From contig OZ220694.1 in the NCBI GenBank assembly GCA_965116525.1, forward strand, positions 407,490 through 471,489: DNA of 64,000 bases, in the 5' to 3' direction. This document shows, one piece after another, positions 2,451 through 49,040 of the stretch. The stretch is from an uncultured candidatus Porisulfidus sp. (GTDB lineage: Bacteria > Pseudomonadota > Gammaproteobacteria > Poriferisulfidales > Poriferisulfidaceae). The number at the start of each line of letters is the position of its first letter. Position 1 is the first letter of the stretch. Under the pieces are notes generated by a model. The model was given only the letters and a program-made list of their open reading frames with translations. It was not told where the DNA came from and made no database searches. Both the position numbers and the translations under genes were made by a program.

Positions 2451-3617
2451 ATGCCTTCTGTTCCCACCTATGAGGAATTGCAATGGCCAACTTTAAAGGC
2501 TTTAAAGGCTAAAGACGGTTCGGTATCGATCCGAGAACTTTCTCAACAGATTGTATCTGATATGAAACTGTCCAATGCAGTCTTAGATATTCCGCGCAAG
2601 GGTCGATCTGAATCTGAATTTGAGTATAACTTGGCGTGGGCGCGCACCTACCTTAGATTATATGCTGGGGCAGTAGACAGGGTATCAAGAGGAGTCTGGG
2701 CGATCACCAAGGAAGGGCGCGAAATCCGTTCTGAAAACGAGTTGCACAAACTTGTGCGCCAAAAAAAATCCGAGGCGTCTAGAGTACGCCGTATATCCGA
2801 TAAACCTACGGATGCCCCATGGTCTTCCCAAGAAATTAGTTTAACTGTTGCTGCATATTTCGATATGCTCCAGATGGAGCAACGGGACGAAATTTATGTG
2901 AAACTTTACAAGAACAGGGAGCTCCAAGGAAATATAGGCCGAACGCGCCAGGCTATTGAATATAAGCATCGAAATATTAGTGCCATTCTCCAAAACCTTG
3001 CACTGCCCTGGATCCAAGGCTACAAGCCAGGCACCAACTACCAAAAAGCCTTGATTGCAGGCGTTGAGCATTATCTCGACGAGCACCCTGGTCTAATTGA
3101 AGAACTTTGCATCCCTCGATCCGGTCTATCCGAACAAGAATATTTAATTCCGGAGCCAGCGCCGAGCAGAAGACCGCATGAACCGAAAGCATTGACGCGA
3201 CTTGTTCGGAAATTTGATCCGGCAACGCGGGAGGCAGAAAACCGAAAGCTTGGAGAACTTGGGGAAAAACGAATACTAGATTCTGAAAAAGCGCGTCTAA
3301 TCAATGCTGGACGAAAAGATCTCGCCGGCAAAGTAAAGTGGGTCTCGGATGTAGAAGGCGATGGTGCCGGATATGATATTTTGTCGTTCGACAACTCGGG
3401 CAGTAAGCGACTACTTGAAGTTAAAACCACTTCTGGACATCAATATACGCCTTTCTATCTAACCGAAAATGAACTACAGCTCTCAATCAAGCGGCCAAAC
3501 GAGTTTCTGCTCGTGCGCCTGTACAACTTCATGTCATCACCAAAGGTATTTGAGCTGAAGCCTCCATTGGAAGACGCAGTGACACTACAACCCACTAATT
3601 ACCGAGCCTTTTTGTAA
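2451..3617 (+). CDS. Mrr N-terminal winged-helix domain fused to a helical domain and a DUF3883 (PD-(D/E)XK) nuclease domain
   Basis: N-terminal PTYEEL..PTLKAL...NLAWARTYL...VSRGVWAIT..G (Mrr_N-like); C-terminal GDGAGYDILSFD...LEVKTT..FYLT.NE (DUF3883-like). Confidence 0.75.
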   Translation: MPSVPTYEELQWPTLKALKAKDGSVSIRELSQQIVSDMKLSNAVLDIPRKGRSESEFEYNLAWARTYLRLYAGAVDRVSRGVWAITKEGREIRSENELHKLVRQKKSEASRVRRISDKPTDAPWSSQEISLTVAAYFDMLQMEQRDEIYVKLYKNRELQGNIGRTRQAIEYKHRNISAILQNLALPWIQGYKPGTNYQKALIAGVEHYLDEHPGLIEELCIPRSGLSEQEYLIPEPAPSRRPHEPKALTRLVRKFDPATREAENRKLGELGEKRILDSEKARLINAGRKDLAGKVKWVSDVEGDGAGYDILSFDNSGSKRLLEVKTTSGHQYTPFYLTENELQLSIKRPNEFLLVRLYNFMSSPKVFELKPPLEDAVTLQPTNYRAFL

Positions 3618-9654: not shown

Positions 9655-9825
9655 TCAGGACTGTGACTCCTGCGAACGGGCAACAAAGCCTTCCAGCAAA
9701 CCTTCCACCCGGGCCATGCGCTCGCGCAAGCCAGCCACGTCGCGATGGAGATTCCACAGAAATCCCAAGATTGCCACCAGCAGGACCATCTGGAACGAAA
9801 TAATCTGAATTGTTATGGTATCCAT
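9655..9825 (-). CDS. 56-aa single-TM/coiled-coil hypothetical protein (paralogue of 47890..48144)
   Basis: MDTITIQ...VLLVAILGFLWNLHRDVAGLRERMARVEGLLEGFVAR; the core is shared with the second copy. Confidence 0.7.
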   Translation of the reverse strand: MDTITIQIISFQMVLLVAILGFLWNLHRDVAGLRERMARVEGLLEGFVARSQESQS

Positions 9826-46353: not shown

Positions 46354-47494
46354 GGCGGCCGCACATCTGATGCTGGTTTCCGGAGAGGCCTCCGGGGACC
46401 GATACGCGGCGGAACTGGTCGAAGAGATCCGTGCCCGGCATCCCGCATGGACCTATTCCGGCATGGGCGGCGAAGCCTCGCGCACGGCCGGCATCGAACT
46501 GATCGTCGACTCCACCGGACTGGCGGTGGTCGGGCTGGTGGAGGTCCTGCGCCACTACCGGGAGATCCGCAACGCGCTAAAAACCCTGAAAGCGAAGGTT
46601 CGCGCCCGGCATCCGGCGCTGTTGGTGCTCGTCGACTATCCGGAATTCAACCTCAGGCTCGCCCGCTTCGCGCATCGGCACGGGGTGCCGGTGCTGTTCT
46701 ACATCAGCCCGCAGATCTGGGCCTGGCGCGCCTGGCGGGTGCGCGAAATCCGCCGCCACGTCGACCACATGGCGGTGGTCTTCCCGTTCGAACGCGACTT
46801 CTACGAAGAACACAACGTGCCCGTCACCTATGTCGGCCACCCCCTGCGCGGGCAGACCAGCCCGGCGCAACCGCCCGATGCCGTCCGCGAGCGATGGGGA
46901 CTGGACGCGCAGTGCCCGGTAATCGGCCTGTTCCCCGGCTCCCGGCGCAGTGAACTGGCGCACCTGATGCCGGTCTGTGCCGGAGCGGTGCGGCAGCTGC
47001 AGGATCATCCCGCCCGACCGCAATTCGCGCTGGTGATGGCTCCTGGACTGAAACCGGACGACTACGCCCCGTGGCTGGCCGATCTGCCCGAGGTGAAATG
47101 CCTGCAGGAACCCATCTACGATGCCATGCAGGTGTGCGACATGGCGGTGGCGGCCTCCGGCACGGTGACCCTGCAACTGGCCCTGATGCGCGTACCGTTC
47201 TGCATGATTTACCGCCTTGCGGGCCTGAGTTATGCGCTGGCGCGCCTGCTGGTTCGCATTGACCGGTACTGCCTCGCGAACATCGTCGCGGGCGAAGACC
47301 TGGTGACCGAGTTGATCCAGGCCGATGCGACCCCTCGAAAGGTTGCGGACGCTCTCACGCCGTGGCTGGACGAACCGGCCCGGCTCGATCAGATGCGTAC
47401 ACGGTTGCAGGTGGTTGAGGAACGGCTAGGACCACCGGCCGGCATGGGCCAGCTAGCCGATTGCGCAGAAAAAGTGATCTCGACTCCCGGGTGA
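46340..47494 (+). CDS. lpxB: Lipid-A-disaccharide synthase
   Basis: SGEASGD, VDYPEFN, YISPQIWAWR, FPFE..FY, YVGHPL, PGSR.SE, SGTVTL and EL.QADAT. Confidence 0.95.
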   Translation: MPTPEAAAHLMLVSGEASGDRYAAELVEEIRARHPAWTYSGMGGEASRTAGIELIVDSTGLAVVGLVEVLRHYREIRNALKTLKAKVRARHPALLVLVDYPEFNLRLARFAHRHGVPVLFYISPQIWAWRAWRVREIRRHVDHMAVVFPFERDFYEEHNVPVTYVGHPLRGQTSPAQPPDAVRERWGLDAQCPVIGLFPGSRRSELAHLMPVCAGAVRQLQDHPARPQFALVMAPGLKPDDYAPWLADLPEVKCLQEPIYDAMQVCDMAVAASGTVTLQLALMRVPFCMIYRLAGLSYALARLLVRIDRYCLANIVAGEDLVTELIQADATPRKVADALTPWLDEPARLDQMRTRLQVVEERLGPPAGMGQLADCAEKVISTPG

Positions 47495-47560
47495 TACCCG
47501 TCGGCGCAAAAGCCAAGTGCCTCACAGACGAGGCGAGCCGTTATTGAGTGAGGCTTATGA

Positions 47561-47893
47561 CTAAATCGCAGGCTCGTCTTTGCCCAAATCGGCAATGCCA
47601 GCCAACTTGACCGGGGGGCGATCAGGGAACTTCGCGACGAGGCTCAACTGTCCACCCAAAGCTTCGACATGCCGCCTCAGCGTCGAGATCAGCAGATCGC
47701 TGCGCTTTTCGATACGCGAGACACTTTCCTGAGTAATTCCGAGTTCCTTAGCGATGCACGCCTGTGTCTGCTCCCGAACCTTACGCAGGTCCCGCAACGA
47801 CATGATTTCAGCAATCAGCTCTTCCGACCGCTTATCGATTCCCCTGCGGCGCTTGGCAGGAAGTTCAGCCATTACTTCATTCAATGTCTTCAT
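47561..47893 (-). CDS. XRE-family HTH protein, HigA-like antitoxin
   Basis: LRDLRK....TQ..IAKELGITQ.SVSRIEKRSDL.ISTLR.HVEALGG.L.LVA.FPDR..V.L. Confidence 0.85.
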   Translation of the reverse strand: MKTLNEVMAELPAKRRRGIDKRSEELIAEIMSLRDLRKVREQTQACIAKELGITQESVSRIEKRSDLLISTLRRHVEALGGQLSLVAKFPDRPPVKLAGIADLGKDEPAI

Positions 47894-48144
47894 TGTTTGG
47901 TGGCTCCCGACGCCATCTCGAAAGTGGCCAACTCCCGAGTGGCTTCATTAATGACAGGATTTTGCATTTGGGATTGCAGGTCGGGTGCGGATTGCCGGGT
48001 CACGAACCCCTCCATCAGACCCTCAAGCCTTGCCATACGTTCGCGAAGGTCGGCAACGTCATTGTGCAGGCTCCAAAGGAAAGCGAGAGCCGCAACGCCC
48101 ACTCCTATGATTGCCCAGAATTCGGCACCGGTTTTTTCGCCCAT
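47890..48144 (-). CDS. 84-aa single-TM/coiled-coil hypothetical protein, ATGA-coupled to the HigA-like gene
   Basis: FWAIIGVGVAALAFLWSLHNDVADLRERMARLEGLMEGFVTR; GAGGT Shine-Dalgarno; paralogue of 9655..9825. Confidence 0.75.
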   Translation of the reverse strand: MGEKTGAEFWAIIGVGVAALAFLWSLHNDVADLRERMARLEGLMEGFVTRQSAPDLQSQMQNPVINEATRELATFEMASGATKQ

Positions 48145-48173
48145 GGGGACTACCTCGTCCTATCTAACCAAAA

Positions 48174-48202
48174 AATATAACTTACAAGTTATATGCTGTC
48201 AA
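48174..48202 (-). promoter_or_regulatory. Sigma70 promoter with an overlapping palindromic operator
   Basis: Minus strand TTGACA-N17-TATATT; perfect inverted repeat ATATAACTT-AC-AAGTTATAT at 48175-48194. Confidence 0.8.
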
Positions 48203-48257
48203 GGTTGTGCCCTAGGTCGTCGCCACCCCTGCTGGAAATTCACCCAGCAACTCAGAT

Positions 48258-49040
48258 TCAGTCGGAATGCTTCTCGCGGATGATGCCGCGCCGGCTCTCG
48301 GCGATGAACGCCCGCATCTGCTCCACTTCCGGGTACTGCCCGGCCAATTGGCTGACTTCTTCCTCCGGCTGCCCGCCGGACACGCGAATCATCAGCTTGT
48401 AGGCCCGCGCCAACGCTTCCATCGTCTCCTCGGAGAAACCGGCCCGGCGCAACCCTTCCCGGTTGAGCCCGTACGGACGGGCCAGGTTGCCCGACGCCAG
48501 CACGAAAGGCGGCAAGTCCTTGTTCAGGGCGGTTCCCATTCCGCTGAACGCATAGCGCCCGACGCGACAGAACTGGTGCACCAGGGTGAACCCGCCCAGG
48601 ATCGCATGGTCCTGGACCTCGACATGGCCCGCCAGCGTTGCGCCGTTGGCGAACGTCGTGTCGTCCCCGATCACGCAGTCGTGCGCGATGTGCACATACG
48701 CCATGATCCAGTTGTGATTCCCGACCTGGGTGCGGTTGTGGCCCTGGGCCGTGCCGCAGTTCAGGGTCACGAATTCGCGGATGGTGTTGCCGTCGCCGAT
48801 CACCAGCTCGCTTTCCTCGCCCGCGTATTTCTTGTCCTGCGGAACCTCGCCGACGGAGGCGAACTGGAAGATCCGGTTCTCCCGGCCCACGGTGGTGCGC
48901 CCGGTGACCACGGCGTGCGGGCCGACCCAGGTGTCGGCGCCGATGCGCACGTGCGGGCCGATGACCGCGTACGGGCCGATTTCCGCCGTGGGGTCGATCT
49001 CCGCCCCGGCGTCCACCACGGCCGTCGGATGAATGCTCAA
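48258..49040 (-). CDS. lpxA: UDP-N-acetylglucosamine acyltransferase
   Basis: IHPTAVV, hexapeptide repeats, GEVPQD.KY, IREFVT, HIAHDC and DLPPF; start probably TTG 49040. Confidence 0.96.
   Translation of the reverse strand: MSIHPTAVVDAGAEIDPTAEIGPYAVIGPHVRIGADTWVGPHAVVTGRTTVGRENRIFQFASVGEVPQDKKYAGEESELVIGDGNTIREFVTLNCGTAQGHNRTQVGNHNWIMAYVHIAHDCVIGDDTTFANGATLAGHVEVQDHAILGGFTLVHQFCRVGRYAFSGMGTALNKDLPPFVLASGNLARPYGLNREGLRRAGFSEETMEALARAYKLMIRVSGGQPEEEVSQLAGQYPEVEQMRAFIAESRRGIIREKHSD

What the first reader, a model, noticed from the sequence alone, without database searches (positions are those of the whole stretch)
47561..48202. TA-like operon in which a small membrane/coiled-coil protein occupies the toxin position ahead of a HigA-like antitoxin
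Seen in sequence: a near-consensus promoter (TTGACA-N17-TATATT, 48202-48174) whose spacer and -10 are covered by a perfect palindrome (ATATAACTT-AC-AAGTTATAT). It is followed by a GAGGT Shine-Dalgarno, the 84-aa TM/coiled-coil gene and, by ATGA coupling, an XRE protein of the type that normally follows a RelE/HigB toxin. No RelE-like ORF or remnant is visible. Established: higBA operons have toxin-first order and are autorepressed through such palindromes. Inference: either an undescribed TA or regulatory pair with a membrane-acting effector of the LRERMARxEG family, or a higB precisely displaced by this family, which then captured an autoregulated promoter. The partnerless paralogue at 9655-9825 would be an orphan or cross-regulated copy.
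Basis: partly seen in the sequence, partly recalled or inferred. Interest (0 to 1): 0.72.

Follow-up and report, generated by a model that had tools for sequence, protein, structure and literature searches.

The report
Toxin swapped out of HigBA cassette
This is a worn-down toxin-antitoxin cassette in a sponge-symbiont bacterium: the original RNase-type toxin gene was replaced by a small membrane-protein gene of unknown function, which now sits under the surviving antitoxin's self-repressed promoter.

Summary
A near-consensus promoter (TTGACA-17-TATATT) is covered by a perfect 9+9 palindrome. It is followed by a GAGGT ribosome-binding site, an 84-aa membrane/coiled-coil ORF, and, by ATGA overlap, a 110-aa XRE gene.

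Comparison explains the arrangement. The XRE is a HigA2-type antitoxin. In 69 of 80 homologous loci it follows a GP49-domain (HigB2-like) toxin or its fragments, behind the same promoter-plus-palindrome. Related sponge-symbiont Gammaproteobacteria carry this cassette at the same lpxA|lpxB site in several states:
- toxin intact
- toxin cleanly deleted
- toxin replaced by a small membrane/coiled-coil gene, either the window's subtype or a second subtype beside a leftover toxin 5' end

The small gene belongs to a large undescribed family (about 1,300 representative clusters, no Pfam). It is under strong purifying selection (dN/dS about 0.035). Of the other 47 loci that carry a member of this family, only one species (L001/L002) has an XRE beside it. 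An obligate toxin-antitoxin pairing is therefore unlikely (about 0.12).

The most likely working is a HigA2-repressed, stress-derepressible promoter driving a captured membrane protein together with an orphan antitoxin. Interest is moderate.

The parts
48174..48202 (-). Sigma-70-type promoter TTGACA-N17-TATATT, inherited from the ancestral GP49-higB2/higA2 operon
   Evidence: It matches 11 of 12 consensus positions and is the only hit in the region. It is nearly base-for-base identical to the promoter in front of the intact toxin in L013: aaccTTGACAgcatataacttAtaagttatatttt versus the window's ...cttGtaag....
48175..48194 (.). Operator palindrome ATATAACTT-NN-AAGTTATAT (= ATAT-AAC-N6-GTT-ATAT), the predicted HigA2/XRE binding site, overlapping the spacer and -10
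   Evidence: Perfect 9+9 inverted repeat. About 30 toxin-bearing homologous operons have a palindrome of the same geometry, CATATG..N..CATAT, at the same place. M. tuberculosis HigA2, the nearest solved homologue, binds ATATCAC-N6-GTGATAT in EMSA (PMC11205783).
48152..48156 (-). Shine-Dalgarno GAGGT of the small gene, 7 nt before its ATG
   Evidence: Read directly from the sequence. Canonical toxin genes instead start 8-10 nt after the -10 with no such leader, so this leader came in with the small gene.
47890..48144 (-). 84-aa small membrane-anchored coiled-coil protein (one TM helix, then DLRERMARLEGLMEGF) occupying the former toxin slot. Residues 1-57 are the conserved family core. Residues 58-84 or so (about 47893-47973) are a tail found only in this genome.
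   Evidence: ORF. Family homologues. dN/dS about 0.035 against L002, from 25 synonymous and 6 non-synonymous differences in 54 codons. AlphaFold2 gives one long helix over residues 3-51 and a low-confidence tail. No Pfam, NCBIfam or PADLOC family.
47561..47893 (-). 110-aa XRE-HTH protein, a HigA2-type antitoxin/autorepressor now without its cognate toxin
   Evidence: Profile hits to solved M. tuberculosis HigA2 (7EWC, E=3.8e-10) and HigA3 (6LTY, E=4e-9). 607 homologues at 60-83% identity. A GP49 toxin lies upstream in most homologous loci. dN/dS about 0.19 against L002. Plasmid homologues are annotated next to RelE/ParE-family toxins.
47519..47534 (-). Terminator-like hairpin GCCTCGTCTGTGAGGC followed by a T-rich tail, 27 nt after the XRE stop
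   Evidence: Consensus scan. This is weak evidence on its own, since shuffles of the region give a mean of 1.2 such sites.
9655..9825 (-). Stand-alone paralogue (56 aa) of the small family between mucD/degP and lepA
   Evidence: ORF and sequence. No operator copy nearby. A relative's contig (L111) has a family member 105 nt upstream of lepA, so this is a resident gene at that junction.

Best explanation
The locus is a degenerate GP49-domain HigB2 / XRE-HigA2 type II toxin-antitoxin cassette. It lies at the 3' end of lpxA in a clade of sponge-associated Gammaproteobacteria.

In the lineage of this genome and of L001/L002, the toxin ORF was removed between the -10 box and the antitoxin start. 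A roughly 170-260-bp gene with its own ribosome-binding site took its place. That gene encodes a member of a large, undescribed family of small proteins with one transmembrane helix and a coiled coil ending in DLRERMARLEGLxEGF.

The ancestral promoter, its palindromic operator and the antitoxin gene survive and are under purifying selection.

Inferred working:
- The XRE dimer binds ATAT-AAC-N6-GTT-ATAT over the -35/-10 spacer and represses its own bicistronic mRNA.
- The small membrane protein is therefore made at a low, self-limited level. It is induced whenever the antitoxin is depleted, for example by stress proteolysis as for other type II antitoxins.
- In this genome the ATGA overlap couples XRE translation to the small ORF.

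The small protein is most likely not a toxin that depends on the XRE for neutralisation. It is a captured cargo gene. The XRE is an orphan antitoxin kept as a regulator and possibly as protection against related GP49 toxins, which are very common in this community.

Shown: homology, the orthologous site series, toxin absence, selection on both genes, operator conservation. Inferred: DNA binding, co-transcription, stress induction, non-toxicity.
For: 1. The XRE is a HigA2-type antitoxin.
- PDB profile hits to M. tuberculosis HigA2 and HigA3.
- 52 of 80 homologous loci have an intact PF05973/Gp49 toxin (E about 1e-21), stop overlapping the XRE start. 17 more have toxin fragments.
- Annotated plasmid homologues follow RelE/ParE-family toxins.

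2. The promoter and operator are inherited.
- About 30 toxin-bearing operons show cTTGACA-gCATATG...CATAT. L013's version is nearly identical to the window's.
- M. tuberculosis HigA2 binds ATATCAC-N6-GTGATAT (PMC11205783).
- A. baumannii HigA2 alone represses the higBA2 promoter (PMC5906591).

3. The same chromosomal site (lpxA | ... | inverted lpxB) occurs in different states.
- Toxin intact: L013, L130/L131.
- Toxin cut down to 8 codons: L132.
- Toxin gone: L133.
- Type-A small gene in the slot: window and L001/L002.
- Toxin 5' stub plus type-B small gene: L014-L016.

4. Toxin loss with antitoxin retention is frequent: 28 of 80 loci.

5. No toxin remnant in the window.

6. Both genes are under purifying selection: dN/dS 0.035 and 0.19.

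7. The small family is large and mostly stand-alone.
- 1,327 representative clusters.
- Of the 47 other loci with a family member, only L001/L002 (one species) have an XRE nearby.

8. GC drops from about 0.66 to about 0.54 over the pair, consistent with acquired DNA.
Against: - No expression or binding data. The public runs that hold the locus are kept only as contigs and say nothing about transcription.
- A small membrane/coiled-coil gene has landed in the toxin slot in at least two arrangements (type A and type B) within one clade. That recurrence could reflect selection for a replacement effector rather than chance.
- The XRE's N-terminal segment, the presumed toxin-binding part by analogy with V. 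cholerae HigA2 (own knowledge), still carries the family's invariant residues. This fits a continuing protein partner as well as it fits recent loss.
- The rest of the genome could not be searched for a GP49 toxin acting in trans.
- The function of the small family is unknown, so 'not a toxin' rests on genomic context only.
Confidence: 0.72

Rival explanations
1. A new toxin-antitoxin pair. The small membrane/coiled-coil protein is a membrane-acting toxin that has functionally replaced HigB2. The HigA2-type XRE controls it by transcription and possibly by direct binding, which restores addiction or abortive-infection capacity to the cassette.
For: - The gene sits in toxin-first order behind an autorepressed promoter, with ATGA coupling.
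- The pair has been kept under purifying selection since the window and L002 lineages split.
- A second subtype of the family occupies the same slot in L014-L016.
- Small single-TM proteins are a known toxin type (Hok, TisB, GhoT; own knowledge).
- A few family members are translationally coupled to other small ORFs (L103, L118, L120, L134).
Against: - The other 45 of 48 loci with a family member, beyond the window and L001/L002, have no XRE within 3-4 kb, and none has any conserved partner.
- The ~57-aa ORF coupled to some members also occurs without a small gene.
- The genome's own copy 1 stands alone with no operator.
- Related genomes tolerate the XRE alone behind the same promoter (L132, L133), so no effector is needed in the slot.
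- The XRE's N-terminal region shows no partner-specific divergence.
Confidence: 0.12
2. The small protein is a type I-like membrane toxin controlled by its own antisense RNA, as its stand-alone relatives would be. Its position next to the XRE is an accident of insertion with no regulatory meaning.
For: - Size and architecture: 52-60 aa core, N-terminal TM helix, polar tail.
- Usually found as a solitary intergenic gene.
- Occasional tandem duplicates (L109).
Against: - No known RNA family on either strand, although an undescribed antisense RNA cannot be excluded.
- The gene lies 20-30 nt downstream of a strong promoter with an operator, so it can hardly escape XRE control.
- Many family members are 90-130 aa with long repeat-built coiled coils, unlike known type I toxins.
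Confidence: 0.05
3. The 84-aa ORF is a non-functional leftover or a chance ORF in the leader of an orphan antitoxin gene.
For: The C-terminal 27 residues are unique to this genome and predicted with low confidence.
Against: - dN/dS about 0.035 over the 54-codon core against L002, at about 78% DNA identity.
- It has its own SD.
- It belongs to a family of more than 1,300 representative clusters whose motif is conserved through synonymous change.
Confidence: 0.02

Closest known systems
GP49-domain HigB2 / Xre-HigA2 toxin-antitoxin modules (A. baumannii higBA2, PMC5906591; M. tuberculosis Rv2022c-Rv2021c and Rv3182-Rv3183, PMC11205783, PDB 7EWC and 6LTY)
   Same: The antitoxin is homologous. The operon has toxin-first layout. 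The promoter is overlapped by a palindrome of the same ATAT-N3-N6-N3-ATAT geometry that M. tuberculosis HigA2 binds. Orthologous loci in relatives carry the GP49 toxin.
   Different: The GP49 toxin is absent here without trace. An unrelated small membrane protein with its own ribosome-binding site occupies its place.
Orphan (solitary) antitoxins left after toxin decay
   Same: The antitoxin and operator are retained and selected while the toxin is lost. This happened in 28 of 80 homologous loci, including clean deletions at the same site in L132 and L133.
   Different: The vacated slot is filled here by a selected, unrelated gene, so the antitoxin's promoter now drives new cargo.
Small membrane toxins (type I Hok/TisB/Ldr, type V GhoT)
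   Same: Short protein with one N-terminal transmembrane helix, often a solitary intergenic gene.
   Different: It has a strongly conserved cytoplasmic coiled-coil motif and, in many members, long arrays of 11-residue repeats reaching 90-130 aa. There is no known antisense RNA. Toxicity is untested. No sequence similarity was found to any described family.

Membership tests
GP49-HigB2 / HigA2 type II TA module | XRE-HTH antitoxin homologous to HigA2 | tested here: met
   Profile of the family hits 7EWC (HigA2, E=3.8e-10) and 6LTY (HigA3, E=4e-9). Pfam HTH_37, HTH_31 and Sigma70_r4 hits.
GP49-HigB2 / HigA2 type II TA module | GP49-domain (PF05973) toxin gene immediately upstream of the antitoxin | tested here: not met
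   tblastn with two GP49 toxins finds nothing in 47500-48300 at E<=10. The upstream ORF has no Gp49 hit. The feature is met at the same site in L013 and L130/L131.
GP49-HigB2 / HigA2 type II TA module | Promoter overlapped by a palindromic operator recognised by the antitoxin | tested here: met
   The sequence feature is present and conserved across about 30 homologous operons. Its geometry matches the experimentally defined M. tuberculosis HigA2 site. Actual binding could not be tested.
GP49-HigB2 / HigA2 type II TA module | Toxin inhibits growth and antitoxin neutralises it by complex formation | not testable with these tools
   Needs expression and interaction assays.
Type II toxin-antitoxin pair (generic), applied to small protein + XRE | The two genes co-occur as a conserved pair across genomes | tested here: not met
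   Only the window and L001/L002 among 48 loci with a family member have the XRE nearby. Only 3 of 80 XRE loci (L014-L016) have a small family gene upstream.
Type I toxin | Small hydrophobic peptide plus a cis- or trans-encoded antisense RNA antitoxin | tested here: inconclusive
   The peptide architecture is compatible. No Rfam RNA on either strand. No transcript data were available.
Undescribed small TM + 'DLRERMARLEGLxEGF' coiled-coil family | N-terminal transmembrane helix followed by a helix ending in the conserved motif; length usually 52-130 aa | tested here: met
   Alignment A3 shows near-invariant A31, L33, E35, R36, M37, A38, R39, E41, G42, L43 and G46. The profile finds 1,327 representative clusters at E<=1e-3. 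The AF2 model is a single helix over residues 3-51.

The most novel reading that the evidence does not exclude
The small TM/coiled-coil family (more than 1,300 representative clusters, no described function) comprises membrane-acting effectors. In this clade one of them has functionally replaced the HigB2 RNase, creating a hybrid module in which a HigA2-type antitoxin controls, and perhaps directly neutralises, a membrane toxin. Two different subtypes in the same slot would then reflect selection for toxin swapping rather than accident.
Probability: 0.12. Interest if true: 0.7.

Novelty: new variant of a known kind. Interest (0 to 1): 0.38.

Why it matters
- **A natural series of TA decay.** One chromosomal site in related genomes shows a type II TA cassette intact, toxin-deleted and toxin-replaced. 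It shows that the antitoxin and its operator can outlive the toxin and be reused as a ready-made, self-limiting, stress-responsive expression unit for unrelated cargo.
- **An undescribed protein family.** The locus flags a large family of small membrane-anchored coiled-coil proteins in sponge microbiomes whose function is open. If the small protein proved toxic and XRE-controlled, it would be a new toxin class joined to a known antitoxin.
- **Horizontal spread.** The GP49/HigA2 cassette is 60-80% identical in protein across many phyla of sponge symbionts, which points to intense horizontal exchange in that community.

Tried and rejected
- **Known families for the small protein.** Pfam, NCBIfam, PHROGs and PADLOC give only sub-threshold noise: CATASP E=0.08, GspM E=0.004, phrog_35191 E=5e-4 with unknown function.
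- **Literature.** No paper contains 'RERMARLEG'.
- **Hidden toxin remnant in the window.** I looked in particular at the unique 3' tail of the small ORF. tblastn finds nothing, and by eye the DNA is about 33% identical to the L013 toxin 3' end, which is chance level.
- **Cross-regulation of copy 1.** The operator occurs only once in the window.
- **Expression evidence.** Only assembled contigs with flat depth were available.
- **Phage origin of the small family.** One of 2.9 million viral contigs carries a member, so I rejected this.
- **A conserved second partner.** A ~57-aa ORF is coupled to the small gene in L118 and L120, and a possibly related one in L103. It also occurs without the small gene, next to SLATT-domain genes in mobile islands, so it is not a fixed pair.
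- **Partner-specific divergence in the XRE N-terminus.** None seen.

Full report
**What is in the sequence**

On the minus strand, 55 nt after the lpxA stop codon (48258), lies TTGACA-N17-TATATT (48202-48174). It matches 11 of 12 consensus positions and is the only such site in 47300-48400. A perfect 9+9 palindrome, ATATAACTT-NN-AAGTTATAT (48175-48194), covers the spacer and the -10.

A GAGGT ribosome-binding site lies 7 nt before the ATG at 48144. That ATG opens an 84-aa ORF (47890-48144). Its stop overlaps, as ATGA, the start of a 110-aa ORF (47561-47893). A weak terminator-like hairpin follows. lpxB then converges from the other strand.

GC falls from about 0.66 to about 0.54 across the pair. 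No Rfam family matches on either strand.

**The XRE gene**

It carries an XRE/sigma-70-region-4-like helix-turn-helix. It belongs to a large, very conserved family: 607 hits in the word-indexed search, with 60-83% identity among the 120 best listed. A profile of the family finds the solved antitoxins HigA2 (7EWC, E=3.8e-10) and HigA3 (6LTY, E=4e-9) of M. tuberculosis.

I fetched 80 homologous loci from species-representative genomes. Nearly all are MAGs of taxa typical of sponge microbiomes, spread over many phyla. I then asked what lies upstream of the XRE gene.
- 52 loci have an intact ~122-aa gene whose stop overlaps the XRE start.
- 17 loci have fragments of that gene.
- 11 loci have nothing recognisable.

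That upstream gene is a PF05973/Gp49 protein (E about 1e-21). This is the GP49-domain branch of the RelE superfamily, to which A. baumannii HigB2 and M. tuberculosis Rv2022c and Rv3182 belong (PMC5906591). Plasmid homologues of the XRE (898 records) are annotated next to 'RelE/ParE family toxin' genes. So the XRE is a HigA2-type antitoxin.

**The promoter is inherited**

Upstream of about 30 toxin-bearing operons the same architecture recurs: cTTGACA, then a palindrome CATATG...CATAT over the spacer and -10, with the toxin ATG only 8-10 nt further on.

M. tuberculosis HigA2 binds ATATCAC-N6-GTGATAT in EMSA (PMC11205783). The window has ATATAAC-N6-GTTATAT, the same geometry. A. baumannii HigA2 alone represses its operon promoter (PMC5906591). 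That the window's XRE binds this palindrome is thus a well-founded inference, though untested.

**The same chromosomal site in relatives**

The closest XRE homologues all lie between lpxA and an inverted gnnA-gnnB-lpxB block, as in the window.
- **L013 (a Chromatiales MAG; XRE 80% identical)** has an intact GP49 toxin behind a promoter that differs from the window's by two bases over 37.
- **L130/L131** have toxin, XRE, Phd, a PIN/VapC gene, then a 97-aa 'type B' small membrane/coiled-coil gene, then lpxB.
- **L132** keeps the promoter and 8 toxin codons (MAWGVIFD) fused to the XRE start. **L133** has the promoter, 28 nt, then the XRE.
- **L014-L016 (including a Ca. Porisulfidus MAG)** keep the promoter, the operator and a toxin 5' stub (M-x-W-x-V-A-L/F-D). 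A type-B small gene follows, then about 90 nt, then the XRE.
- **The window and L001/L002** have the promoter, a new leader with its own SD, a 'type A' small gene, then the XRE.

Elsewhere, 8 loci in other phyla show clean internal deletions of the toxin that leave the promoter and/or the toxin's last codons. Toxin loss with antitoxin retention is therefore common (28 of 80 loci). The window is one outcome of it. tblastn finds no toxin remnant in the window.

**The small protein**

It has no Pfam, NCBIfam or PADLOC family and only a marginal PHROG hit of unknown function.

Homologues are short, typically 52-65 aa. They have an N-terminal hydrophobic helix, a helix ending in the near-invariant DLRERMARLEGLxEGF, and a short polar tail. 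Longer members insert variable numbers of ~11-residue repeats. An exhaustive profile search finds 1,327 representative clusters at E<=1e-3 and 237 at E<=1e-10. AlphaFold2 gives one long helix (residues 3-51) and a low-confidence tail.

The motif is conserved through synonymous change. Between the window and L002, the 54-codon core has 25 synonymous and 6 non-synonymous differences, giving dN/dS of about 0.035. For the XRE, dN/dS is about 0.19. Both genes are functional.

The 27-residue tail and the ATGA overlap are peculiar to this genome. L002's protein is 58 aa and stops 17 nt before the XRE start.

**Is it a toxin-antitoxin pair?**

Across 48 loci with a family member (12 from identity look-ups, 36 from a metagenome scan), only the window and L001/L002 have the XRE within the flanks, and none has a GP49 gene. 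Neighbours are otherwise unrelated housekeeping or island genes.

The window's own copy 1 (9655-9825) stands alone between mucD and lepA. A relative's contig has a member at the same junction. The operator occurs only once in the window.

Some members are translationally coupled to other small ORFs (L103, L118, L120, L134). The best-defined of these partners also occurs without a small gene, beside SLATT-domain genes. Relatives carry the XRE alone behind the same promoter. Nothing therefore indicates that the small protein needs the XRE, or the XRE the small protein.

What keeps the TA-like reading alive, at about 0.12:
- two subtypes have landed in the same slot
- the pair has been kept under selection
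- small single-TM proteins are a known toxin type

**Most likely working**

HigA2/XRE represses the 48202 promoter through the palindrome. The bicistronic mRNA yields the small membrane protein and, coupled to it, the XRE. Depletion of the XRE derepresses both.

The small gene has in effect captured a self-limiting, stress-responsive promoter. The XRE persists as regulator and perhaps as insurance against the many related GP49 toxins circulating in the sponge community. The function of the small protein itself remains unknown. I take it to be a membrane-anchored oligomerising coiled coil rather than an obligate toxin.

**Limits**

- Public runs holding the locus are kept only as contigs, so there is no expression evidence.
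- The order of events (deletion first, then insertion, or a single replacement) and the number of independent captures could not be resolved.

Noticed in passing
L130:2516-2549 and 3438-3471; L131:198-230 and 1120-1152: The GP49-toxin/XRE module (about 920 bp) is flanked by a direct repeat of the last 31 or so bases of lpxA (GGCATCATCCGCGAGAAGAATTC[A/G]GACTGAA). This looks like an att-type duplication and suggests the cassette entered by site-specific insertion at the lpxA 3' end. The window and the other seven relatives checked keep only one copy.
   Followed up: partly
L002:3209-5685; L131:1-2233; L132:3333-5866; window 47494-48258: The lpxA|lpxB gap is an insertion hotspot in this clade. 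It variously holds AT-rich membrane ORFs, a Phd/VapC pair, a Fic gene, a RelE/HTH pair and a second ('type B') small TM/coiled-coil gene next to lpxB. The inversion of gnnA-gnnB-lpxB relative to lpxA is shared by all these relatives, so it is ancestral to the clade.
   Followed up: partly
L013-L092 (80 loci): The GP49-toxin/HigA2 cassette is 60-80% identical in protein across MAGs assigned to many phyla: Gammaproteobacteria, Binatia, Nitrospirales, Latescibacterota, Thermodesulfobacteriota, Dadabacteria, Gemmatimonadota, Acidobacteriota, Chloroflexota and Alphaproteobacteria. This implies extensive recent horizontal transfer. 28 of the 80 copies have a decayed toxin but an intact antitoxin.
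   Followed up: partly
P0015, P0017, P0019, P0020, P0193, P0200, P0219, P0276; L115, L121: Many members of the small family carry variable numbers of ~11-residue repeats (for example REIAxLREQMH) between the TM helix and the conserved end motif, so the coiled-coil length varies from about 25 to about 90 residues.
   Followed up: no
L109:2938-3419: Two family members lie in tandem with a 4-nt overlap (85 aa and 75 aa).
   Followed up: no
L118:2367-2543; L120:983-1159; L103:895-1068; L137-L140: A ~57-aa hydrophilic ORF (motif PPSDYxPTKAELEEE, basic tail) is translationally coupled to the small gene in L118 and L120, and possibly a relative in L103. The same ORF also occurs without a small gene, next to SLATT-domain proteins, VapBC pairs, transposases and integrases. 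It has no family assignment.
   Followed up: partly
L097:2902-3153: The longest ORF holding this family member begins with a lepA-like G1 segment ([14 protein letters not shown]) fused in frame to the small protein's TM helix. This is either an assembly chimera or a rearrangement at the lepA junction where the window's copy 1 also sits.
   Followed up: no
L134:2930-3446: The family member closest to type A outside the clade (P0003, 89 aa, sponge metagenome) lies behind another palindrome (ATATCAA-C-TTGATAT). It overlaps a 60-aa acidic ORF, next to a gene with a weak PycTM hit.
   Followed up: no
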